A DNA stretch of 64,000 nt, from positions 2,274 through 66,273 of the forward strand of contig MGAI01000035.1 of NCBI GenBank assembly GCA_001789695.1. Reading direction: 5' to 3'. The notes beneath the pieces are model-generated. The model made no database searches and was not told where the DNA came from. It saw only the letters and a program-made list of their open reading frames with translations. Of the stretch, positions 4,847-53,972 are shown in pieces; the stretch's first letter is position 1, and each line of letters begins with the position of its first letter. Origin of the DNA: Candidatus Roizmanbacteria bacterium RIFCSPLOWO2_01_FULL_37_16 (GTDB lineage Bacteria > Patescibacteriota > Microgenomatia > UBA1406 > GWC2-37-13). Position numbers and translations under genes: made by a program.

Positions 4847-6326
4847 ATATCTAGAAAAGATAGAGAGAGAGCTGCAATCTGGCAAAACAAAAATAAAAGC
4901 AGAAGAGACCGGCACTGTGATAGAAGTAAAAGACGGTGTGGTATTTTTAGAAGGTTTGGACGAGGTTAGCTTTGGAGAGTTGATTCAATTTGAGCAAAAA
5001 CAGACAGGTTATGTCATCGACATTAGCGAATACAGCGTAGGCGCTATTATTTTAGGCGATTATTTATCAATCAAGACGGGAAACAAAGCATCAGCTTTGG
5101 GATTTACTTTATCAATCCCTGTTTCAAACGACCTTTTGGGAAGAGTTTTTGATCCCCTAATCAATCCTTTAGATGAACAAAAGAAAATTGAGACAAAAGA
5201 GTTTTATCCCGTAGAAAAAGTCGCCCCAAACGTGGTGAAACGAATACCTGTTAACCTGCCAATTCAAACAGGCATAAAAGCTATTGATGCTTTGATTCCC
5301 ATAGGTAGAGGACAAAGAGAGCTTATAATTGGCGACAGAGGAACAGGCAAGACGACCCTGGCTGTTGATACAATCCTAAATCAAAAAAACGAAAATGTGA
5401 TCTGTATTTATTGTGCAATAGGACAAAAGAACTCAAAGGTGGCATCGCTTATTGATCTTTTTAAAATACAAAACGTAATGGATTATACGATCGTGGTGAA
5501 TGCTTCCTCGTCTGATTCGGCGGCAATGCAGTATCTGGCACCGTATTCAGCCTGCGCTATCGGTGAATATTTTATGGATAAGGGTAAAGATGTTTTAATT
5601 ATTTATGACGATTTAACCAAACACGCCTGGGCACATAGGGAAATTTCTCTGATCTTACGAAGACCGGCAGGACGCGAGGCATACCCGGGTGATATTTTTT
5701 ATCTTCACTCAAGACTCTTGGAGAGATCATGTCGACTAAATAAGAAGTATGGGGGTGGGTCCTTGACCGCGCTTCCTATTATCGAAACTTTGGAGGGAGA
5801 TCTTTCTTCCTATATTCCCACCAACGTCATCTCGATTACAGACGGACAGATATATTTAGAAACAGATCTTTTTAATGCCGGTATCAGGCCAGCTATAAAC
5901 GTAGGTTTATCGGTGTCACGGGTTGGAGGAAATGCTCAAACTAAAGCCATTAAGTCTGTTTCCGGCAGGTTAAAACTAGATTTAGCTCAATATCGTGAGA
6001 TGGCAGCCTTTTCCCAATTTGAATCAGAGTTAGACGAGGAAACGAAAAAATTTTTAAATAGAGGTGCCCGAATCACACAAGTTCTTAAACAAAAGAAAAA
6101 TAATCCATACTCTTTGGCCCAAGAAGTAGCAATTATTTGGACGGCAGCTAATGGTTATCTTGATGATCTTTCTCTTGAGAGAGTTGAAAATTTTGAGGCC
6201 AAACTGCTGGCTGATTTAAATACCAGAGGAAGACCGCTTTTGGCAAGAATCAACAAGAATAAAATATTAGAGAAAAAAGACGAGGAGGTGTTGAAAAGAT
6301 TCGTAAGAGAGAATCTTAGTATCTAG
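4830..6326 (+). CDS. atpA: F0F1 ATP synthase subunit alpha
   Basis: Walker A GDRGTGKT and typical alpha motifs (IYDDLTKHA, PGREAYPGDIFYLHSRLLER). Confidence 0.95.
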   Translation: MKLIDEYLEKIERELQSGKTKIKAEETGTVIEVKDGVVFLEGLDEVSFGELIQFEQKQTGYVIDISEYSVGAIILGDYLSIKTGNKASALGFTLSIPVSNDLLGRVFDPLINPLDEQKKIETKEFYPVEKVAPNVVKRIPVNLPIQTGIKAIDALIPIGRGQRELIIGDRGTGKTTLAVDTILNQKNENVICIYCAIGQKNSKVASLIDLFKIQNVMDYTIVVNASSSDSAAMQYLAPYSACAIGEYFMDKGKDVLIIYDDLTKHAWAHREISLILRRPAGREAYPGDIFYLHSRLLERSCRLNKKYGGGSLTALPIIETLEGDLSSYIPTNVISITDGQIYLETDLFNAGIRPAINVGLSVSRVGGNAQTKAIKSVSGRLKLDLAQYREMAAFSQFESELDEETKKFLNRGARITQVLKQKKNNPYSLAQEVAIIWTAANGYLDDLSLERVENFEAKLLADLNTRGRPLLARINKNKILEKKDEEVLKRFVRENLSI

Positions 6327-6405
6327 TATAAAGTATTTAGTATTACGTATAAAAATATTTAATAAAAATACTAGATACTTGATACTTTATACCTAATACT
6401 TTTTG
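6315..6405. repeat. Heptamer-built palindrome (AGTATNN)n ... (NNATACT)n followed by a T-run
   Basis: Left arm cttAGTATctAGTATaaAGTATttAGTATta (includes the atpA TAG stop). Right arm aATACTagATACTtgATACTttATACctaATACT, then TTTTT. The arms are imperfectly complementary, with a 12-bp core containing one mismatch flanked by two 5-bp blocks. Confidence 0.6.
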
Positions 6406-9193: not shown

Positions 9194-9218
9194 TGAGCTA
9201 TAATAGCAAATAGTATCT

Positions 9219-9295
9219 AGTATTTAGTATAAAGTATCCAGTATCAAGAAGCTTTCTTTTTTTTAGATTAAATACTTTATACTTAATACTTTTTT
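9219..9295 (+). terminator. Long AT hairpin plus T-run after atpC (heptamer-palindrome family)
   Basis: AGTATTTAGTATAAAGTAT (9219-9237) pairs with ATACTTTATACTTAATACT (9272-9290), 18 of 19 bp, followed by T5-6. The loop holds an inner hairpin AAGAA-gct-TTCTT. Confidence 0.55.
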
Positions 9296-9302
9296 AAGCA
9301 AT

Positions 9303-11348
9303 ATGGCTTTAATTATTGTTGAATCACCCACAAAAGCGAGAACGTTTAACCGTATCATCAAGGATAATAAGAACTTTGTCTTTGCGACGATGGGTCATAT
9401 CCGTGATTTGCCCCCCAAAAGAATCTCTATTGATTATAAGAATAAATTCAAACCGACCTATGAAATTATTGCCAAAAAAAGAAAAGTAGTAGCCGAACTA
9501 AAAAAACTTGCCAAGGAAAATAAGGAGATTATTCTGGCAACGGATCCTGATCGAGAAGGAGAATCAATAGCCTACCATGCTGCTTATTTGACCGGCCATA
9601 TCAAAGAAAAATGGCCCAACGCCGAAATAATTAAGAACGGTCTAAACCTAAATCTGCAAAGAATAATATTTCACGAAATCACGCCTAGAGCGCTTAAGGA
9701 AGCTCTTGAAAAGCCTGAAAAGTTACGTTTGGATCTTGTTTATGCACAGCAGGCACGAAGGATTCTCGATAGGATAGTAGGGTACGAACTCTCACCGCTT
9801 TTATGGAAAAAAATAGGGAAAAACTGGCTATCAGCAGGACGCGTGCAGACTGTCGTTTTAAGATTAATCGTCGAGAGAGAAAAGGAAATAAAGAATTTTA
9901 AAATAGAAGATTACTATCAGATTTTCGGTTTTTTTGAAAGGGAAAAAAGGGAAAAAGATGTTGCTATAAAGGCAAAATTAATCAGCAAGGACGATATTCT
10001 CTATGAGCAAAAGTTCAGCCTGAGCCTTTTTGCTGGAGATTACCAGTATTCAAAAACAACCATCAATGGACAGAACGTCGATAAAATCAAAAAAGATTTA
10101 GAAGCAGGTGGGTATGACGTATCCGAAATTAAGGAAGAAATTCAACATAGATACCCGCCGCCACCATTTACAACTTCTTTGCTTTCACAAGACTCATTTT
10201 ATAAATTCGGTTTTTCTTCGAAGATGACAATGAGATTAGCGCAGGATCTTTACGAACGGGGATTGATAACTTACCACCGTACGGATTCCTTCAATCTTTC
10301 AACGCAGTTTGTTTTTAAAGCCAAGGATTATATTTTAGAAAACTTCGGCAAAGATTATGCTTTGGACAAGCCAAGGGGATATAAAACCAGGTCTAAAATG
10401 GCTCAAGAAGCTCACGAAGCCATCCGGCCGACTAAATTAGATCCTAGCGCAGCCGAATCTGGAAAAGATCAAAAAATAACAATAAATCACAAAAAACTTT
10501 ATAAACTGATATTTAATCGGGCTATTGCCACTCAGATGAAAGAGGCGTCGATAAAGCATCACACCATAACAATTCTCAGTAGTAAAGCTTATCTTTTCGA
10601 ATCGGAACTTCAATTGGTGATATTTGACGGATTTTTAAAAATTCTCAACCCGGAATTTGTCAAGAGAAATAAAGTTCTACCTGATATTAAAAAAGATGAT
10701 TCATTGCGATTAATCTCGCTTGACACTGTCGAAAACCAAACCAAACCGCCTCCTCGTTATAATGAAGCAACTCTTATCAAAACACTGGAAGAAAAAGGCA
10801 TTGGCAGGCCATCGACTTATGCACCGATTATTTCACTGATTCAGGAAAAAAATTATGTAGAAAAAGAAAACAGATATTTTATGCCGACGCGCCTTGGTGA
10901 AACCATATCGGAATATTTGGCTAAATCCTTTCCTAATATTTTCGATCTTAACTTCACTGCCAAAATGGAGGAGGAATTGGACCTGGTTGCCGATGGAAAA
11001 ATAGATACAGTTCGCTTATTGCAGGAGTTTAATTCTCCTTTCCAAAAAGACCTCTCACAAAAAAAGAAAGATGATACAAAAATTGACGTCGAAGAGGAGA
11101 TAAAAGAGATCTGTCCAAGTTGTGGTTCGCCGTTAGTGGTAAGATATTCAAAGTTTGGAAAATTCATAGGTTGTAGCAATTATCCAAAATGTAAATTCAC
11201 CAAACCATATCTTAAATTTATTCCAAATAAGATTTGTCCCGAAGACGGAGGAAGAGTAGTATTGAAATTTTCTAAAAAAAGAAAACGATTTTTCGGTTGC
11301 GAGAATTATCCAAAATGCACTTGGTCGGCGTGGAAGTTAACTAAATAG
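9303..11348 (+). CDS. topA: DNA topoisomerase I
   Basis: TOPRIM N-terminus (LIIVESPTKA, DPDREGE), the active-site region (ITYHRTDS), and two C-terminal C4 zinc ribbons (CPSCGSPL...CSNYPKC; CPEDGG...CENYPKC). Confidence 0.9.
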   Translation: MALIIVESPTKARTFNRIIKDNKNFVFATMGHIRDLPPKRISIDYKNKFKPTYEIIAKKRKVVAELKKLAKENKEIILATDPDREGESIAYHAAYLTGHIKEKWPNAEIIKNGLNLNLQRIIFHEITPRALKEALEKPEKLRLDLVYAQQARRILDRIVGYELSPLLWKKIGKNWLSAGRVQTVVLRLIVEREKEIKNFKIEDYYQIFGFFEREKREKDVAIKAKLISKDDILYEQKFSLSLFAGDYQYSKTTINGQNVDKIKKDLEAGGYDVSEIKEEIQHRYPPPPFTTSLLSQDSFYKFGFSSKMTMRLAQDLYERGLITYHRTDSFNLSTQFVFKAKDYILENFGKDYALDKPRGYKTRSKMAQEAHEAIRPTKLDPSAAESGKDQKITINHKKLYKLIFNRAIATQMKEASIKHHTITILSSKAYLFESELQLVIFDGFLKILNPEFVKRNKVLPDIKKDDSLRLISLDTVENQTKPPPRYNEATLIKTLEEKGIGRPSTYAPIISLIQEKNYVEKENRYFMPTRLGETISEYLAKSFPNIFDLNFTAKMEEELDLVADGKIDTVRLLQEFNSPFQKDLSQKKKDDTKIDVEEEIKEICPSCGSPLVVRYSKFGKFIGCSNYPKCKFTKPYLKFIPNKICPEDGGRVVLKFSKKRKRFFGCENYPKCTWSAWKLTK

Positions 11349-11378
11349 TATCTAGTATTAAGTATTTAGTATTTAGTA
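11346..11378. repeat. Left arm of heptamer palindrome flanking the four-helix-bundle gene
   Basis: TAGTATCTAGTATTAAGTATTTAGTATTTAGTA. It begins with the topA TAG stop and ends in the ATG of the next ORF. Confidence 0.55.
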
Positions 11379-11752
11379 TGAATACAAAAATCAGATCTTT
11401 TACCCAATTAAATGCATGGAAAAAAGCACATAGGTTTGTGCTTTTCATATATAAAATAACCAAAACATTTCCAAAAGAAGAATTATACGGTTTAGTCAAC
11501 CAGATGAGAAGAGCTGCTGTTTCTATCACGAGTAATATTGCAGAGGGGTTTTATAGAAGAACATCAGAGGATAAAAATCATTTTTATTACACTTCATTAA
11601 CATCGCTAGCAGAAATTCAGAATCAGTTAATTATTTCAAGAGATTTAAATTATATTTCTAATACTGTATTTCAAGAAGCTGCTAAATATTCTATCGAAGT
11701 TCAAAAGTTAATAAATGGTCTTATTAAATCTTCTAGTACGAAGAGTTTTTAA
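11378..11752 (+). CDS. Four-helix-bundle protein of the '23S rRNA intervening-sequence protein' family
   Basis: 124 aa with the family hallmarks recognisable by eye (F..L.AWKKAH.F...IYKITK.FPKEE.YGL..QMRRAAVSI.SNIAEG). Confidence 0.75.
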   Translation: MNTKIRSFTQLNAWKKAHRFVLFIYKITKTFPKEELYGLVNQMRRAAVSITSNIAEGFYRRTSEDKNHFYYTSLTSLAEIQNQLIISRDLNYISNTVFQEAAKYSIEVQKLINGLIKSSSTKSF

Positions 11753-11753
11753 A

Positions 11754-11784
11754 ACTAGATACTTTATACTTAATACTAAATACT
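11754..11784. repeat. Right arm of heptamer palindrome flanking the four-helix-bundle gene
   Basis: ACTAGATACTTTATACTTAATACTAAATACT. About 80% complementary to the left arm, with a shared core ATACTTAATACTA. Confidence 0.55.
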
Positions 11785-11791
11785 TATTTCT

Positions 11792-12373
11792 ATGATTGGA
11801 AAAATTAAAGGAGAACTTGTTGAAATTGATGGAAATCTGGGACTGATTATGACATCGGGAGGGGTTTTTTATCAGGTCTATCTTACGCCGTCGATTTTAA
11901 AAAATTATAAAAAAAAGATCGAAGTTGAAGTCTATACCTATTTACAGGTAAGAGAAGATGCTCTGGTTTTATTTGGCTTTGAGAGCAAGGCAGAATATGA
12001 TTTTTTTAAATTACTCCTGGGAGTTTCTGGCGTAGGCCCAAAAACAGCCTTTTCCATCATCTCTTTTTCTCGGATAGACGACATAACTGAGGCAGTAAAA
12101 AAAAATAGTACGGATTATTTTAGTAGAATTCCTGGATTAGGTAAAAAGACTGCGCTTAAGATAATTTTAGAGCTTTCAGAGAAACTTGATGCCGAGTTTA
12201 AATTGGAAAAGATGTACTTATCAGAAGATGATAAAACCGTTGTCGATGCTTTGGTTTCATTAGGTTTTAAATCAAATGAAGCTAAAAAAATTCTTGGCCA
12301 ACTACCTAATAAAATCTCCATCGAGAATAAAATCAAAGAGGCTATCAGATTGGCAACCAATCCTAAAAATTAA
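11792..12373 (+). CDS. ruvA: Holliday junction helicase subunit RuvA
   Basis: MIGKIKGELVE... N-terminal OB domain and HhH motifs (LLGVSGVGPKTA, IPGLGKKTA). Confidence 0.9.
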   Translation: MIGKIKGELVEIDGNLGLIMTSGGVFYQVYLTPSILKNYKKKIEVEVYTYLQVREDALVLFGFESKAEYDFFKLLLGVSGVGPKTAFSIISFSRIDDITEAVKKNSTDYFSRIPGLGKKTALKIILELSEKLDAEFKLEKMYLSEDDKTVVDALVSLGFKSNEAKKILGQLPNKISIENKIKEAIRLATNPKN

Positions 12374-13408: not shown

Positions 13409-13505
13409 GCCTGGGTGGCGGAATTGGTATACGCGCAGGACTTACCCAGAACCACATAGGGTTCTGGGTACCCCAAACCCAGCGTGGTTTGGGGTAAAAT
13501 CTTGT
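13409..13505 (+). pseudogene. tRNA-Leu(UAA) pseudo-fragment (nt 1-45) interrupted by a 52-nt twin-hairpin insert
   Basis: 13409-13444 is identical to nt 1-36 of the intact tRNA at 13752. Two perfect 9-bp hairpins follow. AAAATCTTGT (13496-13505) then mimics the 3' side of the anticodon loop and stem. No variable arm, T arm or acceptor 3' strand follows. Confidence 0.6.
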
Positions 13506-13506
13506 T

Positions 13507-13752
13507 ATGAACTACGTATACGTTTTGAAATCATCAACAAGAATTTATATTGGTAGAACGAGTAAGCTTAAGGAGAGAATAAATGAACATTTTAAAAGAA
13601 AAACATGGACTACTAGACGATTTAAAAAGTTAGAATTAATTTTTTATGAGGCATTTAAAGATAAAATAGATAGTATAAGAAGAGAGAGATATTTTAAAAC
13701 ATCAAAAGGTAAGTCGTCATTAAAACAGATAATAAGAGAGTCTTTAAAATAG
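13507..13752 (+). CDS. Small GIY-YIG nuclease-family protein (YhbQ/COG2827-like, 81 aa)
   Basis: The N-terminus YVYVLKSSTRIYIGRTSKLKERINEH carries the GIY...YIG motifs and conserved Arg; RRERYFK supplies the conserved Glu. The stop codon TAG overlaps nt 1 of the tRNA. Confidence 0.8.
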   Translation: MNYVYVLKSSTRIYIGRTSKLKERINEHFKRKTWTTRRFKKLELIFYEAFKDKIDSIRRERYFKTSKGKSSLKQIIRESLK

Positions 13753-37619: not shown

Positions 37620-37635
37620 TTGAAATTATCTGATT

Positions 37636-37709
37636 GGGCCTATAGCTCAATTGGCCAGAGCATCGGATTTGCATTCCGAAGGTTTGGGGTTCAACTCCCC
37701 ATAGGTCCA
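37636..37709 (+). tRNA. tRNA-Ala(UGC)
   Basis: Acceptor GGGCCTA/TAGGTCC with the G3:U70 identity pair, anticodon arm TCGGA-TTTGCAT-TCCGA, T arm TGGGG-TTCAACT-CCCCA. Confidence 0.9.
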
Positions 37710-37710
37710 C

Positions 37711-37752
37711 CCTTCGACTTTTCTCAGGGCTATAGCCTTGAGCGAGCGAAGG
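37711..37752 (+). repeat. GC-rich hairpin between tRNA-Ala and 23S (related to 2338-2362)
   Basis: CCTTCG-ACTTTTCTCAGGGCTATAGCCTTGAGCGAG-CGAAGG with nested stems. CGACTTTTCTCAGGGCTATAGCC resembles CGACTTTTGCTCGGGACTGTAGCC at 2339-2362. Confidence 0.4.
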
Positions 37753-38278
37753 CAAATCGAAATGCACTTTAACAATTAAAGGTAGGTCAAAATAACTAAT
37801 AGAAAAGATGGGAGAAATAAAGCTAATGGTGGATGCCTAGGTAACTTAAGCCGAAGAAGGACGCGTGAATGAGCGCGATAACAACGGTGAGTCCTCTATC
37901 AGACGATATCAACCGTTGGTTTCCGAATGGGGCAACCCGATCCTGCGTAAGTAGGATGATACTACGCTTCGCGTAGTAAGGAGACCTAATGAACTGAAAC
38001 ATCTCAGTAACTAGAGGAAAAGAAAACAATAGTGATTTCGTTAGTAGCGGCGAGCGAAAGCGAAATAGCCCAAAGTCTGGAGTAATCCAGGCAGTTGCAG
38101 GGCCCGCCACAACAGGATCAGTTAAGAATAGAAGAATATCTTGGAAAAGATAGCCATAGAGGGTGATAGCCCTGTATTCTAAATTCGAGACTGCTTGGGT
38201 GGGTACCTAAGTACCACGAGTCACGGCAAACCTTGTGGGAATCTGGGTCGGTCACGATCCAAGGCTAAATACTTAAGT

Positions 38279-38319
<41 letters not shown>

Positions 38320-38395
38320 TCCCCCGAAAGGGGAGTGAAATAGAACCTGAAATCATTAGCTAACAAACAGACAGAGCTTGTGCGTAGCACAAGGC

Positions 38396-38495
38396 AGTTT
38401 AGAAAGTTCTTAAAGTGAAAAGTTTGTAAAGATATGTTGTATTAAAGCAATTATCTTTATTAAATTTAAAAACCTTATAACTTTGTAACTTCCTC
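38396..38495 (+). other. AT-rich intervening-sequence-like block in the 23S helix-25 region
   Basis: About 100 nt of very low GC lie between the hairpin CTTGTGCgtaGCACAAGG (38377-38394) and the conserved ...GTCGTGCCTATTGAAGAATGAGCCAGCGAG. The E. coli sequence has no counterpart. It contains a stem TAAAGATA/TATCTTTA. Confidence 0.5.
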
Positions 38496-39161
38496 GTGCT
38501 GCGCGCGAGTAATGTCGTGCCTATTGAAGAATGAGCCAGCGAGTCTCCGATAAGAACTTCGTTTAATCCCTTTTTGGGAAAAGGCAAAGCGAAAGCGAGT
38601 CTTAATAGGGCGAATTTTAGTTCTATCGAAGGACCCGAAACTGGGTGAGCTAACCATGAACAGGGTGAACTCCGCCTACAGGCGGAGGGAGGCCCGAACC
38701 CGTTGTCGGTGAAATGGCATGGGAAGATTTGTGGTTAGGGGTAATATGCCTATCGAACCCAGAGATAGCTGGTTCTCCCCGAAATATATTTTGGTATAGC
38801 CCTCGACTTTATTTATGAAGGGGTAGAGCTACTGGATGGTTATGAGAGCGTAAGCGATCACAATCAACCAAACTCCAAATACTTTGTAAAAATAGCGAGG
38901 AGTCAGTCTCGCCGGGATAAGCCGGTGTAGGCAAAAGAGAAACATCTCAGATTTCCGTCTAAGGTTCCTAAATGATTTTTAAGTGGTTAAGGCCGTTGGT
39001 TGTCCAACACAGTAGGAAGGTTGGCTCAGAAGCAGCCATCCTTTAAAGAGTGCGTAACAGCTCACCTAAATATTCTACGCCAATGGCGTAGGGATAATCT
39101 GCGCCGAAAATGATCGGAGCTAAAAATCTGCCGAAGACGAAAATCTTGTGCTTCGCACAAG

Positions 39162-39235
39162 GGTTTAAGGTTAATTACTTTTTGGTCATAATTGACTAAA
39201 AATAATCACAACTTTACTCTTGTGTGAAGCACAAG
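39162..39235 (+). other. Intervening-sequence-like block in the 23S helix-45 region (AT-rich spacer plus duplicated hairpin)
   Basis: CTTGTGCTTCGCACAAG (39145-39161) and CTTGTGTGAAGCACAAG (39219-39235) flank a 57-nt AT-rich spacer, just before the conserved GGTAGGGGAGCG. The two 17-mers are mutually complementary in 16 of 17 positions plus one G-U. Confidence 0.5.
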
Positions 39236-40434
39236 GTGGTAGGGGAGCGCCCGCCAGGCAGTGAAGCAAAATTGCAAGATTTTGTGGAGCGTGGCGGGGT
39301 GAGAATGCTGGCATAAGTAGTGTATCTCCCGATGAAAACTCGGGATGCCGAAAATCCAAGGTTTCCTCAGCAATGTCAATCAACTGAGGGTTAGTCGGAT
39401 CTAAGGGAGTCCTGTTTGGTACTTCCGATGTTCAAACAGTTAATATTCTGTTACTTTAACACTCTTGTTATTACTTAAAAATTGACGAAATTTGATACTC
39501 TGTCCCTTCTATATGGGGGGTTAAGTTATAAACTGTATCGTAAGATGCAGCAAGTAACAAATACAACCCTGACGTAATGTCGGGGGAGATAGAGGACTTA
39601 AGTTCCCAAGAAAAGATTTTTAAGGAAAGAGTGTTGAATCCGTACCGATAACCGACACAGGTGGATTGGTGTAGAACACTAAGGCATACGGGTAATGATG
39701 ATTCAAGGAACTCGGCAAAAAAGCTGGACGTAAGCTTTGCGATATGTCCTGTCCCGCCTCTGGCGGGATTGCAACAAATGTTTGTCAACCGACTGTTTAG
39801 CAAAAACACAGGTTCCTGCTAACCCTAAAAGGGGATGTATAGGAGCTGAAACCTGTCCAGTACTGGTAAGTTAATCATTTCGGGTGATTCCGACGAGCAA
39901 TCTTCGGAAAAGCTTGAGATGCAAGCTCCAGTGAACGACAGCTCTAACCCTGAGAGTTCTAAGGTAGCGTAACCCCTTGCCGGGTAAGTTCCGGCCCGCA
40001 TGAAAGGTCTAACGAGTTGACAACTGTCTTGAATCACTGCCCGACGAATTTGAAATGGCTGTGAAGATGCGGCCTACCTACACCTGGACAAGAAGACCCC
40101 GGGAGCTTAACTGAAACTAGGCATTGGTGGGAAGAAATAAATTGTTGAGCGTAGGAGGGAGTCCCGAGTTTATCGGGACAACGATGAAACACCTCTCTCT
40201 TGTTTTTTTTCACCTTATCCCGCTTAGCGGGAGACAGTACTTGGTGGTCAGTTTAACTGGGGCGGTTTCCTCCAAAAGAGTAACGGAGGAGCGCAAAGGT
40301 CAGCTAGCTGCGCATAGAAATCGCAGTGTTAGTGCAAACGCATAAGCTGGCTTAACTGTGAGGCATACAAGCCGATCAGATGCGAAAGCAGGCGTTAGTG
40401 ATCCTCGATCCCGATGTGATATCGGGACGGGCTT

Positions 40435-40467
<33 letters not shown>

Positions 40468-40571
40468 GGTCGCCTCCGAGAGTTCATATCGACGAGGCGG
40501 TTCGGCACCTCGATGTCGGCTCACCGCATCCTGGGGCTGAAGTCGGTCCCAATGGTCGGGCTGTTCGCCCG

Positions 40572-40618
<47 letters not shown>

Positions 40619-40926
40619 ACTCTATCCGGTGTAGGCGCATGGAATTTTGAGGAGGGACTCCTACAGTACGAGAGGACCTAGGATGTGGAGATCCCTGGTG
40701 TACCGGTTATCTTATAAGGGTAATGCCGGGTAGCTATATCTCTATTCGATAAACACTGAATGCATATCAAGTGTGAAGCGAGCTCCAAGATAAGAATTCC
40801 TTTTAGCTTTCCTGAAGATTACAGGATTAATAGACGTCAGGTGTAAGTTCTGTAAAGAATTTAGCCAAGACGTACTAAGTAGCAATCTCCCATCTTTTTT
40901 ATTAGTTAAAATAGAAATAATCAAAC

Positions 40927-42090
40927 CTACTCGTTAAGCAGTTCGCTGCCAAGGACACGATATATCTCTTCAATTGATGTTATTCCGCCATAAACTTTAT
41001 TCAAGGCCGATGTTTTTAATGAATGAATTTGCTTTTTTTTAAGTAATTGATTAAGGTATGAAACTGGTTGATTTTCTACAATAGCTGTTTTAATATCATT
41101 GTCAAAATAGGTAATTTCATAAATTCCTGTTCTGCCAAGATAGCCTGTCGCTTTACAAAGATGACATCCTTTTGCTTTAAATAAGGTCGCCACATTTTCT
41201 CCTACTAGTTTTTTTTCATCACTATTAGGTACAAAAGCACTTCTGCAAGAAGTACAGATTTTTCTTACCAATCTGGATGTTATTACAGCTTTTATTGTTT
41301 GGGCAACAACAACATGTGTTATTCCCATTTCTAAAAGTCTGGTTACCAGAGCAGGAACGTCAAATGTATGAAAAGTAGAAAGAACTAAAGTACCAATCAG
41401 AGCAGCTTGAATGGCCATTCGCGTAGTATCAGCGTCACGTATTTCTCCCAGCATGATTATATCTGGATCTTGACGGATAACTGAACGCATAGCTTTTGCA
41501 AAAGTAAAACCTATACTTTCATTGACTTGGCTTTGTCGGATACCTTCTATTCTATATTCTATCGGGTCCTCTAAAGTTATAATATTTCTAAAAGGTCTAT
41601 TAAGAAAGTCTAAAATTGAATAAAGCAGGTTAGTTTTTCCAGAAGAAGTCGGACCAGTAATCAGTATCATACCCGAAGTACTTAAGAGAAGTTTATGTAT
41701 CATAAGGAGCTGATCACGTTCTAAACCAGTATTATTTAATTTCAAAAGCATGTCTTCTCTGTTTAGAATACGAATAACAATATTTTCTCCAAATAAAGCA
41801 GGCAAGATAGAAACCCTGAAGTTATAAAGTACACTTTTATACAAGAATTCAAAATGACCATCTTGGGGTTGTCTGCGTTCGGCAATATTCATGTTAGAAA
41901 GTACTTTAATTTTGCTTATTGTGTTTTCTTTCAAATATTTATCTACCTTATTAAAAAGATGTAATATTCCATCAATTCGGAAGCGAATATTTAAGTGATC
42001 TCTTTCTGGTTCAATATGAATATCACTGGCTCTATAATCCAAAGCATTTTGCAAGATAGATGTAACAATCTCATCTGCCGTATCTGCCAT
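40927..42090 (-). CDS. GspE/PilB-family type II/IV secretion ATPase (core ATPase only, 387 aa)
   Basis: DIHIEP, Walker A GPTSSGKTN, Asp/His boxes (IMLGEIRD, LVLSTFHT) and the tetracysteine cluster (CTSC...CHLC). No N-terminal GSPII_E_N domain. Confidence 0.85.
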   Translation of the reverse strand: MADTADEIVTSILQNALDYRASDIHIEPERDHLNIRFRIDGILHLFNKVDKYLKENTISKIKVLSNMNIAERRQPQDGHFEFLYKSVLYNFRVSILPALFGENIVIRILNREDMLLKLNNTGLERDQLLMIHKLLLSTSGMILITGPTSSGKTNLLYSILDFLNRPFRNIITLEDPIEYRIEGIRQSQVNESIGFTFAKAMRSVIRQDPDIIMLGEIRDADTTRMAIQAALIGTLVLSTFHTFDVPALVTRLLEMGITHVVVAQTIKAVITSRLVRKICTSCRSAFVPNSDEKKLVGENVATLFKAKGCHLCKATGYLGRTGIYEITYFDNDIKTAIVENQPVSYLNQLLKKKQIHSLKTSALNKVYGGITSIEEIYRVLGSELLNE

Positions 42091-50170: not shown

Positions 50171-52207
50171 CTATAGTAGTTTTGATTGAATTTTCTCTAA
50201 TTCAATTTTTGCTTCCTGTTCTGTAATGTTTTTTCGATTTGAAGAGAAATAAAATCGTAAGGTGATTTTATTTTTAAAAGTATCAATTAATTCTATTTTT
50301 TCTAATAGATATGAAGTTTTGAATGCTAATTCTTTAATTAAAGAATAAGGCTGGTTTTTATTTTGCGCAAGTGTTAAATCTAACTTTATTTGAGCAAAGG
50401 GATTTATCGCTTTATATATACCTATAGGTAAATAATATTTCATCAACACTTCAAGCTCAAAGGATGCCAAATAAACGTTATTTTTCAAACCAAATCTGTC
50501 TTTTATCAAATAGTTTAACTGTCCAAATTTCCCTATCCAATCTTTGTCGATAGTAATTTCAGCTTGTAATCCTTTTTCGAAAATAAGGAACTTACTTTGA
50601 CTAATTTTATATTTCTCAATTTTCAGCTCAGTAAAAAGAGAGTCAATAATTCCTTTAAGATCATCAATATTTGTGTTTACTACTATAGCTAATTGATATT
50701 TTTCAATAGGTAAATTTCCCTTTTTGGGAATATAACTTTTGGCAATTTCAAAAAATTTAAGCACATCTGCTTTTCCTTCATTATTTTTAATATTCATAAT
50801 TAGAGAGGGGAAGATATGTGTTCGCATAAACTTGATTTCCTCAGAAATCGAATTTTTTATTGCCAGGTGATCTTCTATTATTAAATCGGACTTCTTTATC
50901 ATTTTTTCAGAGATCATAGAGTAATTCATAACTTCATTGAGACCTAAGTGTTTCAAAAAATACTTAATTTTTGATTGAAGATTAAACATAAGTTCTGCTT
51001 CTTTTGGTTGCTTTATATAAACAGACGATTGAATATTATTGGGAAGATTATGATAACCGTAAATTCTGGCAATTTCTTCAATCAGGTCTTCCTTAATCAA
51101 AACATCCCGACTTCGATACGAAGGTATTTGTACAGTTACCAATTCATCACGGCCGTGGTCAACATGGTTATTAAATCCGAGGTTTGATAAAATTTTTATA
51201 ATCTTATCTTTACTTACTTGAACGCCAATAATCCTTTGAATATCAGTGATTGAGACAGTTAAAGATTTGGATTTATAGGGATTTGGGTAAATATCATAGA
51301 TTTGCGAAGCAATTTTTGCTCCTGCGTATTTTTCGAGTAGCTCAACTCCGTAAACTGTTGTCGGTTCGACTCTTTCTTCGTCCAGTCCTTTTTCAAAATA
51401 GGTCGCGGCAACAGTGCGTTGACCAGTTGTCATTGACGCTCTTCGAATCTTTTTTGGATTGTATGTCTGAACAAAAAAAATTATGTTGTTTGTTTTGTCG
51501 TTTACTGCAGAATTAGAGCCTCCCATAATTCCGCAAAGATCAATTAGCCTTTTGTTGCCATCTTCAATTACAATATCTCCTCCTGGTAGAACAATTTGTT
51601 TTCCATCTAAGGTTACGATTTTTTCTCCTTCTTTACTTTCGCGCATAATCATTGTGGCTTTCCCTATCGAATCATAATCAAATATATGTACGGGTTGTCC
51701 AAAAGCAAGCATAAGATAATTTGATATATCAATGACGTTATTTATAGATTTTATTCCGCAAAATTGAAGTCGTTCTCTAACAAAATCAGGAGGTTTTGAA
51801 ATTTTCACATTTTCTAAAACGATAGCTGTAAATCGGGAGCATAAATTGTCGGATTTAATTTTAATATCTAAATTTTTGTTACGATCGCTACTTTTTTTGA
51901 GAAAATTAAATTTATATTTTTCTAAGGGATTAACCTTTAGCCTTGCTTTTTTACCAAAATAAGGGAGAATTGCTAAGGCTTCCTGGGCTATGCCGAAAAC
52001 TGAAGCGATATCTACGCGATTTGAGGTTATTTCAATATCGTAAACATAGTCATTTGTCCCTCGTAGCTTTAGCGGAGTGGAATCAGCCATTTTAGTAACA
52101 CTCTCTATGGAAGGACCACAAAGAGACAAGTATTTTTGGATTTCCTGAGGCGTTGCATCAGTATCCAAATAGTCCAAAAGCCAATTGTGGGTGATTTTTA
52201 TATTCAC
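50171..52207 (-). CDS. pheT: Phenylalanine--tRNA ligase beta subunit (no N-terminal tRNA-binding OB domain evident)
   Basis: B3/4 and B5 domain sequences (ITSNRVDIASVFGIAQE, GIMGG) and an anticodon-binding-like C-terminus. Directly downstream of pheS. Confidence 0.9.
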   Translation of the reverse strand: MNIKITHNWLLDYLDTDATPQEIQKYLSLCGPSIESVTKMADSTPLKLRGTNDYVYDIEITSNRVDIASVFGIAQEALAILPYFGKKARLKVNPLEKYKFNFLKKSSDRNKNLDIKIKSDNLCSRFTAIVLENVKISKPPDFVRERLQFCGIKSINNVIDISNYLMLAFGQPVHIFDYDSIGKATMIMRESKEGEKIVTLDGKQIVLPGGDIVIEDGNKRLIDLCGIMGGSNSAVNDKTNNIIFFVQTYNPKKIRRASMTTGQRTVAATYFEKGLDEERVEPTTVYGVELLEKYAGAKIASQIYDIYPNPYKSKSLTVSITDIQRIIGVQVSKDKIIKILSNLGFNNHVDHGRDELVTVQIPSYRSRDVLIKEDLIEEIARIYGYHNLPNNIQSSVYIKQPKEAELMFNLQSKIKYFLKHLGLNEVMNYSMISEKMIKKSDLIIEDHLAIKNSISEEIKFMRTHIFPSLIMNIKNNEGKADVLKFFEIAKSYIPKKGNLPIEKYQLAIVVNTNIDDLKGIIDSLFTELKIEKYKISQSKFLIFEKGLQAEITIDKDWIGKFGQLNYLIKDRFGLKNNVYLASFELEVLMKYYLPIGIYKAINPFAQIKLDLTLAQNKNQPYSLIKELAFKTSYLLEKIELIDTFKNKITLRFYFSSNRKNITEQEAKIELEKIQSKLL

Positions 52208-52211
52208 AATA

Positions 52212-52290
52212 GTTCATAACGTTCATAAAGTGAAAAGTTCATAAAGATATTGCTTTACAAACTTTAAAAACTTTATAAACTTTCTAACTT
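52212..52290. repeat. AT-rich repeat element in the pheS-pheT spacer, related to the 23S helix-25 insertion
   Basis: Three GTTCATAA units on the left and TTTNNAAAC units on the right; AAGTTCATAAAG pairs with CTTTATAAACTT. By eye, 52221-52250 matches 38406-38435 at 27/30, and 52253-52290 matches 38455-38491 at 32/38. Confidence 0.5.
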
Positions 52291-52294
52291 TTAA

Positions 52295-53335
52295 TCAGAA
52301 TTCTTTTAAAAATCTAATATCTCCATCGTATAAAATTCTAATATTATCCATTTTTGTTTGAATTATAATCAATCGTTCAATGCCAAAAGCAAATGCCCAA
52401 CCGGTATATTTACTTGGATCAATTTTACCGGCTTTTAAAACGTTTGGGTGAACCATGCCAGCCCCGGCTAATTCTAACCAACCAGATTTACAAACTTTAC
52501 ACTGTTGCCCTGATATTTCACCCTTACCCAAACAAACAGCACAGGTAATGTCAATTTCAAACGATGGTTCGGTAAATTGAAAGTGAAAGGGTCTGAGTCT
52601 AGCTTCAAATTCTTCACCAAAGTATTCCTTAACAAAGTAATCTATTGTACCTTTGAGATTTGTGATATTGATGTTTTTATCAACACACAACGATTCAAAT
52701 TGATGGAACATAGGCGTATGAGTTACATCCCAGTTAGGACGGTAACATTTAGCGATATTAATCATTCGTATAGGTGGTTTTCCCACTCGCATCATCTCAC
52801 GAACCTGACATGAAGATGTATGTGGTGACAAAATCATCTTTCCGTATTTTTTACTTTCTGCTGCATCAATGAAAAGAGTTTCAAAGTCGTCACGAGCAGG
52901 GTGACCTTTCGGCATGTTAAGAGAATCGAAGGAAAAATATTCCCACTCAACTTCTGGGTACGTCATGCGAATAAAACCTATTTTTTTAAAAATATCACTA
53001 ATTTTTTCAATAGCGTTAGAAATAAGATGAAGACTGCCTTTAGGATATTGCTTTCCAGGAAGAGTAATATCAAAATAGGAAGCTGTATCGGGTTTTTTTA
53101 TAAGTTGCTGACGCTTTACTCCAATTAATTGATTAATTGAAGTTTTAAGTTTATTGACTTTTAGACCAAAATCTTTTTTCTCTTCGGATTTTAAGTTGGT
53201 AATAGATTGAAGTAAATGATTAATTAAGCCTTTGCGACCGAGGTAAATGATTTGAATAGTTTCTAGATCATGAATCGTGTCTAGGTTCTTAATTTTTTTT
53301 TTGAATTCCAAAAGAAGTTTTTCAACGTTATTCAT
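52295..53335 (-). CDS. pheS: Phenylalanine--tRNA ligase alpha subunit
   Basis: Class II motifs (HPARD, RPNWDVTHTPMFHQFE, GWAFAFGIERL). Contains a C4 cluster (CAVCLGKG...CKVCKSG). Confidence 0.95.
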   Translation of the reverse strand: MNNVEKLLLEFKKKIKNLDTIHDLETIQIIYLGRKGLINHLLQSITNLKSEEKKDFGLKVNKLKTSINQLIGVKRQQLIKKPDTASYFDITLPGKQYPKGSLHLISNAIEKISDIFKKIGFIRMTYPEVEWEYFSFDSLNMPKGHPARDDFETLFIDAAESKKYGKMILSPHTSSCQVREMMRVGKPPIRMINIAKCYRPNWDVTHTPMFHQFESLCVDKNINITNLKGTIDYFVKEYFGEEFEARLRPFHFQFTEPSFEIDITCAVCLGKGEISGQQCKVCKSGWLELAGAGMVHPNVLKAGKIDPSKYTGWAFAFGIERLIIIQTKMDNIRILYDGDIRFLKEF

Positions 53336-53718: not shown

Positions 53719-53781
53719 AGTATTAAGTATTAAATATCTAGTATTTTAATTTTATGCTTAGTATTTTATACTGGATACTAG
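53719..53781. repeat. Heptamer (AGTATNN/ATACT) repeat block in the rpmI-rplT spacer
   Basis: AAGTATTAAGTATTAAATATCTAGTATT...CTTAGTATTTTATACTGGATACTAG. Same unit composition as 6315-6400, 9211-9290 and 11346-11784, but with weaker arm complementarity. Confidence 0.4.
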
Positions 53782-53972
53782 ACTCCTAGCATTTTTTTTA
53801 TTTTCTTTTTATAATTCCCTTTTACCTGTTTTAAAAGTTTCAATCTTCTAATCTGCCTCTTAGATTTTTTTGATCTAAGATGTCGTAAATAATGAGATCT
53901 ATGTAAGAGTTTTCCTTTTTTAGTGATTTTAAAACGCTTGGCTGCTGATTTGTGAGTTTTTTGCTTAGGCAT
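53778..53972 (-). CDS. rpmI: 50S ribosomal protein L35
   Basis: MPKQKTHKSAAKRFKITKKGKLLHR is the canonical L35 N-terminus. Confidence 0.85.
   Translation of the reverse strand: MPKQKTHKSAAKRFKITKKGKLLHRSHYLRHLRSKKSKRQIRRLKLLKQVKGNYKKKIKKMLGV

What the first reader, a model, noticed from the sequence alone, without database searches (positions are those of the whole stretch)
38377..38495. IVS-like AT-rich block at the 23S helix-25 site, homologous to an intergenic element elsewhere in the window
Directly after the hairpin CTTGTGC-gta-GCACAAGG, the 23S sequence is interrupted by about 100 nt of very AT-rich sequence before conserved sequence resumes. My manual alignment to E. coli 23S shows no counterpart. 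Helix 25 is one of the two classical sites of bacterial 23S intervening sequences, which RNase III excises to give fragmented 23S.

The two flanks of the block match the pheS-pheT spacer by eye:
- 38406-38435 matches 52221-52250 at 27/30;
- 38455-38491 matches 52253-52290 at 32/38.

The rRNA copy also has about 19 extra central nt. This implies that the rRNA insertion and the intergenic element are copies of one dispersed, possibly mobile hairpin element. It gives a rare view of where an IVS comes from.
Basis: partly seen in the sequence, partly recalled or inferred. Interest (0 to 1): 0.7.

Follow-up and report, generated by a model that had tools for sequence, protein, structure and literature searches.

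The report
Mobile hairpin element inside 23S rRNA
The AT-rich block in the 23S rRNA gene of this Roizmanbacteria (CPR) genome is a real insertion: one copy of a mobile, hairpin-forming element family that sits in many rRNA helices and also between ordinary genes, which gives a concrete lead on where bacterial rRNA 'intervening sequences' come from.

Summary

- **The insert.** Rfam's LSU model places a 119-nt insert in the loop of helix 25. Comparison with relatives defines a 134-nt element at 38377-38510. It has a GC-rich clamp at each end and an AU-rich core with 20% G+C.
- **The pheS-pheT match.** It scores 37 against 12.9±2.1 for shuffles, with 0 of 2000 shuffles reaching it.
- **Relatives.** Three of six related Roizmanbacteria have a short helix 25. 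Three have different inserts. One carries an element 84% identical to this one, but in helix 45.
- **Empty sites.** Two relatives have a 2-nt pheS-pheT junction where the window has the 87-nt hairpin.
- **The wider family.** The arm motif occurs in at least 170 public stretches. These include at least 11 places in 16S and 23S genes, their flanks and an intron-like insert. One 23S gene carries four copies.
- **Link to classical intervening sequences.** The motif also forms the inverted repeats around PF05635 '23S rRNA intervening sequence protein' genes.
- **Family test.** A covariance model built without the window finds the helix-25 insert (E 8e-12), the pheS-pheT hairpin (6e-7) and a second insert in helix 45 (3e-5).

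Excision by RNase III is inferred, not tested. Short inserts at these sites in CPR bacteria were already reported. I found no paper describing the family relationship.

The parts
37806..40897 (+). 23S rRNA gene (host of the element). tRNA-Ala lies upstream; there is no 16S or 5S gene next to it.
   Evidence: Rfam RF02541, 2218 bits, model positions 1-2925; tRNA-Ala at 37635-37712.
38377..38510 (+). Composite hairpin insertion element that replaces the apical stem-loop of 23S helix 25 (the finding).
   Evidence: cmscan insert at 38381-38499. Boundaries come from relatives with a short helix 25: L072, L077, L078. Model R1 gives a full-length hit at 38379-38507, 64.1 bits, E 8e-12. The segment 38366-38515 folds at -55.9 kcal/mol, z -8.2.
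38378..38395 (+). 5' GC-rich clamp module (CTTGTGC-GTA-GCACAAGG). It pairs with the 3' module to form the base of the long hairpin.
   Evidence: Conserved in rRNA-borne copies at six other rRNA sites. In the basal helix, 8 of 12 pairs show compensatory changes.
38396..38491 (+). AU-rich core (20% G+C). The left arm is built of AAAGTT-type units, then a loop, then a right arm of AACTTT-type units.
   Evidence: Homologous to the pheS-pheT spacer and to the helix-45 insert of L073.
38492..38510 (+). 3' GC-rich clamp module (CCTCGTGC-TGC-GCGCGAGT).
39145..39235 (+). Second, more divergent member of the same family, in 23S helix 45. It adds about 74 nt and has the same kind of GC modules at both ends.
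   Evidence: cmscan insert at model positions 1218/1219; inverted repeat I2; R1 full-length hit, 34.3 bits, E 3e-5.
52208..52294 (-). Core-only copy of the element. It fills the pheS-pheT spacer, between the pheS stop codon (TGA) and the pheT start codon (GTG).
   Evidence: R1 hit at 52212-52296 (-), 42.1 bits, E 6e-7, model positions 18-102. The mRNA-sense strand folds at -23.2 kcal/mol, z -4.5. Relatives L199 and L200 have TAA-AA-ATG at this junction.
11337..11792 (+). Related kind of element carrying a gene, in the topA-ruvA spacer. Inverted-repeat arms of AGTAT-type units (11337-11382 and 11749-11792) flank a PF05635 '23S rRNA intervening sequence protein' ORF (11378-11752).
   Evidence: Inverted repeats I1, I3 and I11; Pfam PF05635, E 2.3e-36; tblastn.
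6318..6400 (+). Hairpin without an ORF, with the same AGTAT-type arms, in the atpA-atpG spacer.
   Evidence: Inverted repeat I4; blastn similarity to the arms at 11347-11382 and to 9219-9290; flanking genes identified.
9199..9296 (+). AGTAT-type hairpin without an ORF, between atpC and topA.
   Evidence: Inverted repeats I5 and I6.
53720..53782 (.). A further AGTAT-type hairpin, just upstream of rplT in the infC-rpmI-rplT-pheST gene cluster.
   Evidence: blastn, 72% identity over 71 nt to 6318-6400, E 3e-6.

Best explanation
The block is the AU-rich core of a 134-nt composite palindromic insertion element at window 38377-38510. The element has replaced the apical stem-loop of 23S helix 25 in this Candidatus Roizmanbacteria genome.

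**The family.** The element belongs to a family of oriented, hairpin-forming elements. Each has a 5' GC clamp, then CAGTT, then AAAGTT-type repeat units, a loop, AACTTT-type repeat units, GTAACTTG, and a 3' GC clamp. These elements copy themselves into the apical loops of variable rRNA helices. The AU-rich core alone also inserts into tight spacers inside housekeeping operons; here it sits between pheS and pheT. In other genomes the same arms are the inverted repeats around PF05635 (intervening sequence protein) genes, which is the architecture of the classical ORF-bearing intervening sequences.

**What is shown.**
- The insertion and its site.
- Membership of the family.
- Polymorphism among relatives.
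- Empty sites in relatives.
- An RNA-type long hairpin with conserved G·U pairs.

**What is inferred.** The element is transcribed within pre-23S rRNA and folds on its own on the solvent side of the ribosome. Like classical helix-25 and helix-45 intervening sequences, it is cut out by RNase III, which would leave a fragmented 23S rRNA. The way the element is copied is unknown.
For: **Site.** cmscan places the insert in the helix-25 loop, between E. coli positions 515 and 626.

**Structure.**
- The region folds at -55.9 kcal/mol, z -8.2.
- An alignment of 10 rRNA-borne copies gives one long hairpin with 91.5% of cells paired (0 of 500 shuffles reach this) and 11 pairs with compensatory changes (1 of 500).
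- A U·G pair is invariant in 10 of 10 copies and a G·U pair is present in 8 of 10, both on the rRNA-sense strand.

**Sporadic distribution among relatives**.
- L072, L077 and L078 have a short helix 25.
- L074 has the same GC clamp but an unrelated AU core.
- L073 and L076 have other inserts.

**Mobility.**
- The helix-45 insert of L073 is 84% identical (119/141) to the window's helix-25 insert, while the 23S core is about 81% identical.
- One 23S gene (L158) has four copies, at E. coli positions 130-181, 268-304, 1143-1337 and 2396-2424. Three of them are 92-94% identical.

**Family membership.** Model R1 was built without any window sequence. In the window it hits 38379-38507 (E 8e-12), 52212-52296 (E 6e-7) and 39145-39235 (E 3e-5). 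The next best hit has E 0.6.

**Empty pheS-pheT junctions** in L199 and L200.

**Dispersal.** There are 54 stretches in genome contigs across several phyla and at least 119 in metagenome contigs. At least 9 of the 80 metagenome loci fetched have a copy inside an rRNA gene.

**Link to PF05635.** ORFs of this family lie between or next to the arms in L016, L011, L046 and L023 and in 7 of the 80 metagenome loci.
Against: - There are no RNA data, so excision and fragmentation are only an analogy.
- No RNase III gene lies in the window. The rest of the genome was not searched.
- No target-site duplication and no transposase were identified, so 'mobile' rests on distribution, not on a known mechanism.
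- The pheS-pheT copy lacks the GC clamps. It is therefore a relative of the core, not a copy of the whole rRNA element.
- The arms consist of short repeated units, so alignments are partly ambiguous, and some similarity could be inflated by slippage.
- The public loci were retrieved with a pattern taken from the window, so those 26 nt are shared by construction.
Confidence: 0.75

Rival explanations
1. Same origin, different fate. The hairpin is not excised. It stays in mature 23S rRNA as a young, lineage-specific expansion of helix 25, the site of expansion segment ES7 in eukaryotes.
For: - The structure is an autonomous, well-paired extension with conserved G·U pairs and compensatory changes, as expected for an RNA that must fold.
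- rRNA tolerates insertions at helix apices (title and abstract of PMC2441807, listed).
- No RNase III gene was seen in the window.
Against: - A long, regular double-stranded stem of about 55 bp at the two classical sites is exactly what RNase III removes in other bacteria (PMC4990558).
- The AU cores are hypervariable among relatives. This fits sequence that is discarded better than sequence built into the ribosome.
- Tsurumaki et al. 2024 also judged short inserts at these sites in CPR to be probable intervening sequences.
Confidence: 0.3
2. There is no mobility. The helix-25 block and the pheS-pheT hairpin arose independently in place, by slippage of short AT-rich units or by template switching, and they look alike through convergence.
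For: - The arms are tandem 7-9-nt units that could expand by slippage.
- Template switching can create hairpins (abstract of PMC8794818).
- AU cores differ completely between close relatives that share the same clamp, as in the window against L074.
Against: - The similarity is far above shuffles and above every other window segment.
- The identity of 84% over 141 nt includes the non-repetitive GC clamps, and it links helix 25 here to helix 45 in L073.
- Cores are identical at three sites of one gene in L158.
- The same 26-nt motif recurs across phyla and next to one subfamily of PF05635 genes, which are 61-67% identical to each other.
- The relatives have clean empty sites.
Confidence: 0.06
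3. The block is a self-splicing intron (group I or II), or a degenerate remnant of one.
For: CPR 23S genes are rich in group I introns. In L035 a family hairpin sits inside an intron-like 517-nt insert at E. coli position 2500.
Against: - The block is only 134 nt and folds as a single unbranched hairpin.
- No Rfam intron family matches in the window.
- It lies at a helix apex in domain II, not at a known intron site.
- It has no ORF.
Confidence: 0.01
4. The block is an assembly or chimera artefact of a metagenome-assembled genome.
For: The source is a metagenome-assembled genome (GCA_001787885.1), and rRNA regions are prone to misassembly. Several contigs break inside this 23S gene.
Against: The 300 nt across the insert are identical in independent ENA and NCBI assemblies (L061, L062). 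The spacer is identical in six contigs from different samples.
Confidence: 0.01

Closest known systems
Classical ORF-less 23S rRNA intervening sequences in helix 25 and helix 45 (Salmonella, Proteus/Providencia, Helicobacter, Campylobacter)
   Same: - It occupies the same two sites (helix-25 and helix-45 apex).
- It is about 100 nt long and AT-rich relative to the rRNA.
- It forms an extended stem that replaces the terminal loop.
- It is sporadic among relatives (background from PMC4990558).
   Different: - Excision by RNase III is not shown here.
- The same element family occupies both helices and many further sites in 16S and 23S rRNA.
- It has conserved GC clamps.
- It has copies outside rRNA genes. 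I found no such links reported for the classical intervening sequences.
ORF-bearing intervening sequences that encode the S23p / PF05635 four-helix-bundle protein (Leptospira, Coxiella burnetii helix 45, Xanthomonas, Brucella)
   Same: - The arm motif of this family forms inverted repeats directly around PF05635 ORFs in other genomes.
- The window has its own PF05635 gene between repeat-unit arms.
- The Coxiella intervening sequence also has tandem heptamer repeats ahead of its ORF.
   Different: - The helix-25 copy has no ORF.
- The PF05635-carrying copies seen here lie between protein genes, not in rRNA.
- The window's PF05635 element has arms of a different repeat unit (AGTAT type).
Short non-intron insertion sequences at sites 23IS2 and 23IS4 of CPR 23S rRNA genes (Tsurumaki et al. 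2024, PMC11270868)
   Same: It is the same kind of object in the same group of bacteria. [quoted passage not shown]
   Different: The main text of that paper never uses the words 'hairpin' or 'intergenic' and treats these inserts as uncharacterised. It does not report a shared sequence family, the GC-clamp architecture, copies at many sites within one gene, or copies between protein genes.
REP/BIME elements, Rickettsia palindromic elements and mitochondrial repetitive hairpin-forming elements
   Same: These are short dispersed palindromes that sit in spacers inside operons. In Rickettsia and in mitochondria they also invade RNA genes (my own knowledge; PMC2800124 and PMC3733652 are listed). 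Here, copies lie in the atp operon, in the infC-rplT-pheST cluster and in rRNA.
   Different: There is no sequence relationship. No RAYT-type or other transposase was identified. The rRNA-borne copies keep one orientation relative to transcription and carry conserved G·U pairs, which points to constraint at the RNA level.

Membership tests
Bacterial 23S rRNA intervening sequence (IVS, excised by RNase III) | Inserted at the apex of helix 25, helix 45 or helix 9, replacing the terminal loop | tested here: met
   cmscan puts the insert in the helix-25 loop, between E. coli positions 515 and 626. A second insert lies in the helix-45 loop.
Bacterial 23S rRNA intervening sequence (IVS, excised by RNase III) | Sporadic presence among closely related genomes | tested here: met
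   Of six relatives that share the PPDK-23S gene order, three have a short helix 25. Three have inserts with different cores.
Bacterial 23S rRNA intervening sequence (IVS, excised by RNase III) | Folds into a long, largely double-stranded stem | tested here: met
   -55.9 kcal/mol, z -8.2. The consensus long hairpin has 91.5% of cells paired and 11 covarying pairs.
Bacterial 23S rRNA intervening sequence (IVS, excised by RNase III) | Lower G+C than the surrounding rRNA | tested here: met
   The element has 33% G+C and its core 20%, against 46% for the 23S gene.
Bacterial 23S rRNA intervening sequence (IVS, excised by RNase III) | Cut out of pre-23S rRNA by RNase III without religation, giving fragmented 23S rRNA | not testable with these tools
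   No RNA data are available. No rnc gene lies in the 64-kb window, and the rest of the genome was not examined.
ORF-bearing IVS (PF05635 / S23p) | A PF05635 ORF in the loop between the inverted repeats | tested here: not met
   The 134 nt hold no ORF. The same arm motif does flank PF05635 ORFs elsewhere, and a PF05635 element lies at window 11337-11792.
Lineage-specific rRNA expansion segment | Present and alignable in all relatives of the lineage | tested here: not met
   It is absent from L072, L077 and L078. The cores of L073, L074 and L076 cannot be aligned with it.
Group I / group II intron | Matches an intron covariance model; branched catalytic fold; known intron site | tested here: not met
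   No Rfam match other than LSU rRNA. It is a single unbranched hairpin of 134 nt.
Dispersed palindromic element (REP/MITE-like) | Several related copies in one genome, in non-coding spacers | tested here: met
   The window has three model hits: helix 25, helix 45 and the pheS-pheT spacer. Several other genomes have 2-4 copies each.
Dispersed palindromic element (REP/MITE-like) | Empty (uninserted) sites in relatives | tested here: met
   The pheS-pheT junction is TAA-AA-ATG in L199 and L200, against the 87-nt hairpin in the window. Three relatives have a short helix 25.
Dispersed palindromic element (REP/MITE-like) | Target-site duplication and/or a cognate transposase | tested here: inconclusive
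   No duplication is visible at the pheS-pheT junction. No transposase was identified. A weak Y1_Tnp gene fragment at the edge of L074 was not followed up.

The most novel reading that the evidence does not exclude
Bacterial rRNA intervening sequences are not oddities of rRNA. They are the rRNA-resident copies of a widespread class of selfish hairpin elements. The autonomous form is a PF05635 gene between repeat-unit inverted repeats. Forms without an ORF derive from it.

These elements would insert into hairpin loops of highly transcribed RNA genes and into operon spacers by a mechanism not yet described. They are constrained at the RNA level and can jump between helices and between 16S and 23S rRNA. 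They would then be the raw material both for fragmented rRNAs and for new rRNA expansion segments.
Probability: 0.3. Interest if true: 0.85.

Novelty: new variant of a known kind. Interest (0 to 1): 0.7.

Why it matters
The origin of rRNA intervening sequences has been open since 1990; a 2016 study still calls their 'functionality and origin' unclear (PMC4990558). Short uncharacterised inserts are very common in CPR rRNA genes (PMC11270868).

This locus links several things in one sequence family:
- rRNA inserts at the two classical sites;
- inserts at at least eight other places in and beside 16S and 23S genes (16S h6, h17 and h39; 23S E. coli positions 130-181, 268-304 and 2396-2424; the 23S leader; the spacer after 16S);
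- a hairpin with a clean empty site between two protein genes;
- the inverted repeats around PF05635 genes.

That turns 'where do intervening sequences come from' into a testable question. A defined element with conserved ends can be traced across genomes, assayed for RNase III cleavage and tested for mobility.

It also matters in practice. These inserts lengthen and vary the 16S V1, V3 and V7 regions of uncultured lineages, which affects primers, probes and rRNA-based classification.

Tried and rejected
- **Chance similarity in AT-rich DNA.** Rejected by shuffles and by scanning the whole window.
- **Conserved expansion segment.** Rejected by the helix-25 sequences of six relatives.
- **Intron.** No Rfam match. 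An E-value-mode Rfam scan of the pheS-pheT spacer also found nothing.
- **Two local small hairpins in place of one long helix.** The 'loop' triplets of the 5' and 3' GC modules covary with each other, which favours the long helix.
- **Strain-level presence or absence.** All contigs that carry the identical flanking proteins have identical insert and spacer, so they give no information.
- **RNase III gene in the window.** None found.
- **A second rRNA-to-intergenic pair in relative L073.** Its helix-25 core against its PPDK-enolase spacer gives only 50/68 identity in A-rich, low-complexity sequence. I treat this as weak.
- **Loci L071 and L075.** These contigs end before helix 25. L078 has no 23S gene next to PPDK at that place, but a helix-25 segment was found elsewhere in the locus.
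- **Literature.** Searches for TIGR02436, for intervening sequences 'elsewhere in the genome', and for palindromic or hairpin rRNA insertions in Patescibacteria found no description of this family. Brown et al. 2015 is not held in the library.

Full report
**Observation.**
The window holds a 23S rRNA gene at 37806-40897 (+), scoring 2218 bits against Rfam LSU_rRNA_bacteria. tRNA-Ala lies upstream. There is no 16S or 5S gene beside it. The gene is 167 nt longer than the model. The cmscan alignment leaves 119 nt (38381-38499) unaligned in the loop of the helix at model positions 574-595, which is helix 25. blastn against E. coli rrlB (L198) brackets the insert between E. coli positions 515 and 626.

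The similarity to the pheS-pheT spacer is significant. The local score is 37, against 12.9±2.1 (maximum 23) for 2000 dinucleotide shuffles and a maximum of 17 for 4201 other window segments. The insert with its flanks folds into one long hairpin at -55.9 kcal/mol, z -8.2. The spacer folds best on the mRNA strand, at -23.2 kcal/mol, z -4.5.

**Organism and authenticity.**
Exact protein look-ups place the window in NCBI GCA_001787885.1, contig MFZC01000006.1. One source names it Candidatus Roizmanbacteria bacterium RIFCSPHIGHO2_02_FULL_37 (Microgenomates, CPR). Independent assemblies carry an identical insert and an identical spacer.

**Relatives: sporadic and hypervariable.**
The neighbouring PPDK gene led to six related genomes that keep the 23S gene next to it. 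I compared the segment between two conserved flanks.

| Genome | Segment length (nt) | Helix 25 |
|---|---|---|
| window | 204 | this element |
| L072 | 86 | short; no insert |
| L077 | 93 | short; no insert |
| L078 | 93 | short; no insert |
| L074 | 186 | same GC-rich base as the window; unrelated AU-rich apex |
| L073 | 195 | different base and apex |
| L076 | 209 | different base and apex |

The native helix-25 tip, for example UCCCGC-UUAG-GCGGGA in L072, is wholly replaced in the window. This is the distribution expected of an intervening sequence, not of a conserved expansion.

**The same element at another helix.**
The window's 23S gene has a second insert of about 74 nt in the loop of helix 45, at 39145-39235. 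Both of its ends carry the same kind of GC module.

Relative L073 carries in helix 45 an insert that is 84% identical (119/141) to the window's helix-25 insert. The identity covers both GC modules and the AAAGTT/AACTTT arms. The 23S cores of the two genomes are about 81% identical.

A different core shows the same pattern. The helix-45 core of L072 is 76% identical over 143 nt to an insert in L073 between E. coli positions 130 and 177.

**A widespread family.**
The left-arm pattern GTTNNTAAAGTGAAAAGTTNNTAAAG occurs in 54 stretches of species-representative genomes. About one match is expected by chance even in AT-rich DNA. The hosts include:
- Patescibacteria (Saccharibacteria, Berkelbacteria, Moraniibacteriota, Nomurabacteria);
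- Bacteroidota;
- Ignavibacteria;
- Flexilinea;
- metagenome-assembled genomes labelled Gammaproteobacteria.

Several genomes hold 2-4 copies on different contigs. Almost all copies are intergenic. Most have the complementary arm within 70 nt, and most lie on the strand of the flanking genes.

A slightly looser pattern found at least 119 stretches in metagenome contigs. At least 9 of the 80 loci fetched have the motif inside rRNA genes. Mapped to E. coli numbering, the sites are:

| Location | Site (E. coli positions) | Loci |
|---|---|---|
| 23S | 130-181 | L158, L117, L071 |
| 23S | 268-304 | L158, L117, L113, L072 |
| 23S | helix 25 | window, L104 |
| 23S | helix 45 | L073, L158, window |
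| 23S | 2396-2424 | L158 |
| 23S | inside an intron-like 517-nt insert at 2500 | L035 |
| 16S | h6 region (63-243) | L124, L141, L150 (two copies) |
| 16S | h17 (432-507) | L116, L141 |
| 16S | h39 (1118-1174) | L111, L124 |
| Flanks | 23S leader | L117 |
| Flanks | spacer after 16S | L124 |

One 23S gene (L158) has four copies, and three of them are 92-94% identical.

**Architecture and structure.**
All rRNA-borne copies share one plan:
1. a 5' GC module of the GTGC-NNN-GCAC type;
2. CAGTT;
3. AAAGTT-type repeat units;
4. a short loop;
5. AACTTT-type repeat units;
6. GTAACTTG;
7. a 3' GC module of the GCGC-NNN-GCGC type.

RNAalifold on ten copies predicts one long hairpin in which the two GC modules pair with each other. 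Counting pairs on that structure gives these results:
- 91.5% of cells are paired (0 of 500 shuffles reach this).
- 11 pairs show compensatory changes (1 of 500 shuffles).
- 8 of the 12 basal pairs covary.
- A U·G pair is invariant in 10 of 10 copies, and a G·U pair is present in 8 of 10.

Wobble pairs work only on the strand as aligned, and all ten copies were aligned in rRNA sense. The model's better-scoring strand is the rRNA sense strand in 20 of 22 rRNA-associated hits. This points to constraint on the transcribed RNA.

**Family test that excludes the window.**
I built covariance model R1 from nine copies in other organisms. Run over the whole window with filters off, it gives:

| Window hit | Strand | Bits | E-value | Model coverage |
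|---|---|---|---|---|
| 38379-38507 | + | 64.1 | 8e-12 | full length |
| 52212-52296 | - | 42.1 | 6e-7 | positions 18-102 (core without clamps) |
| 39145-39235 | + | 34.3 | 3e-5 | full length |
| next best | | | 0.6 | |

Across 88 other loci, the high-scoring full-length hits are almost all in rRNA, and the core-only hits are intergenic. One caveat applies: all loci were retrieved with a pattern taken from the window, so those 26 nt match by construction. The right arms and the clamps are independent evidence.

**The intergenic copy is an insertion.**
Two relatives have pheS and pheT separated by TAA-AA-ATG. They are L199, whose pheS is 74% identical, and L200, from the same genome as L074. 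The window has TGA, then 87 nt of hairpin, then GTG, followed by the same pheT N-terminus (NIKITHNWLL). No target-site duplication is visible.

**Link to the intervening sequence protein.**
In L016 the arm motif directly precedes a 114-aa ORF that is a full-length PF05635 23S_rRNA_IVP (E 2.6e-35), followed by a repeat-unit right arm. The same arrangement occurs in L011 and in L046; in L046 the ORF is frameshifted and lies between rnc and smc. In L023 the contig ends inside the ORF, so no right arm is seen. The ORF also lies next to the motif in 7 of 80 metagenome loci, where the proteins are 61-67% identical to the L016 protein.

The window itself has a PF05635 gene at 11378-11752 (E 2.3e-36) in the topA-ruvA spacer. 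It lies between inverted arms made of AGTAT-type units. Hairpins of that type without an ORF lie at three other places:
- in the atpA-atpG spacer (6318-6400);
- in the atpC-topA spacer (9199-9296);
- near rplT (53720-53782).

Inverted repeats around a PF05635 ORF are the architecture of the classical ORF-bearing intervening sequences of Leptospira and Coxiella. The Coxiella element also has tandem heptamers ahead of its ORF (PMC4990558).

**Mechanism.**
These points are shown:
- the insertion at the helix-25 apex;
- membership of the family;
- presence/absence polymorphism and empty sites;
- copies of the same element at different helices;
- an RNA-type long hairpin.

These points are inferred:
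- The hairpin projects from the ribosome surface.
- Like classical helix-25 and helix-45 intervening sequences, it is cleaved out by RNase III.

Retention as a young expansion segment cannot be excluded; I give it about 0.3. How the element is copied is unknown. No transposase was found, and the role of the PF05635 protein is unknown.

**Comparison with the literature.**
Tsurumaki et al. 2022 and 2024 report that 77-82% of CPR 23S genes have insertions of at least 100 nt. They also report that many short non-intron inserts lie at two sites that match the known intervening-sequence sites. [quoted passage not shown] They report 23S_rRNA_IVP ORFs inside CPR rRNA insertions as well.

An intervening-sequence-like insert at helix 25 in a CPR bacterium is therefore a known kind of thing. 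I found no paper that describes the following:
- the shared sequence family;
- its clamp-plus-core architecture;
- its presence at many sites in 16S and 23S rRNA;
- its intergenic copies;
- its identity with the arms around PF05635 genes.

The search covers open-access papers and bioRxiv only.

**Verdict.**
I class the finding as a new variant of a known kind, with interest 0.7.

Noticed in passing
window 39145-39235: A second insert of about 74 nt lies in the loop of 23S helix 45, the other classical IVS site. It has CTTGTGC-TTC-GCACAAGG and CTTGTGT-GAA-GCACAAGG modules at its ends and is a significant hit to family model R1 (E 3e-5).
   Followed up: yes
window 11337-11792: A PF05635 '23S rRNA intervening sequence protein' gene (11378-11752, E 2.3e-36; a weak bAvd-like match as well) lies in the topA-ruvA spacer. 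It is flanked by 36-nt inverted arms made of AGTAT-type repeat units.
   Followed up: partly
window 6318-6400, 9199-9296, 53720-53782: Three hairpins without ORFs carry the same AGTAT-type arms as the PF05635 element. They lie in the atpA-atpG spacer, in the atpC-topA spacer and near rplT. The first overlaps the atpA stop codon.
   Followed up: partly
window 37635-42090: The 23S gene stands alone. Only tRNA-Ala(TGC) lies upstream, and there is no 16S or 5S gene beside it. It sits between a divergent PPDK/PEP synthase gene and a convergent T2SSE-type ATPase gene. The PPDK-23S order is kept in several Roizmanbacteria relatives.
   Followed up: partly
window ~39073-39092: A further small insert of about 20 nt (uucuacgccaauggcguagg, a short hairpin) lies at Rfam LSU model positions 1152/1153, upstream of helix 45.
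   Followed up: no
window 52205-52207: pheT starts with GTG five nucleotides after the inserted hairpin. Relatives with the empty junction start with ATG two nucleotides after the pheS stop codon. The hairpin may affect coupled translation of pheS and pheT.
   Followed up: no
L158 210-4325 (metagenome contig Ga0209542_10050320): One 23S gene carries four full-length family copies, at E. coli positions 130-181, 268-304, 1143-1337 and 2396-2424. Three of them have identical AU cores.
   Followed up: yes
L035 687-1204 (Saccharibacteria CAYYWQ010000001.1): A 517-nt, intron-like insert at E. coli 23S position 2500 holds two repeat-unit hairpins side by side. One is of the AAAGTT type and one is of a TTAGTGA/CCCACTA type, and their loops are similar. 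No Rfam intron family matched.
   Followed up: partly
L083 2044-2092: A distantly related organism (pheS 35% identical) has a half-element, the left arm only, in its own pheS-pheT spacer. It has the same orientation relative to the genes as in the window.
   Followed up: no
L046 (Nomurabacteria JAHFNO010000004.1), reverse strand 1267-1690: A frameshifted PF05635 ORF lies between family arms, inserted exactly between the RNase III gene (rnc) and smc.
   Followed up: partly
window 13442-13497 and 13507-13752: A GC-rich 56-nt palindrome lies just upstream of an 81-aa ORF. The N-terminus of that ORF (YVYVLKS...IYIGRT) looks like a GIY-YIG nuclease domain, and tRNA-Leu lies next to it. The ORF was not scanned against Pfam.
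   Followed up: no
L074 12181-12358: A gene fragment with a weak Y1_Tnp (IS200/RAYT-type transposase) Pfam hit lies at the edge of the locus from the relative that shares the window's helix-25 GC clamp. It may or may not be relevant to how the hairpins move.
   Followed up: no
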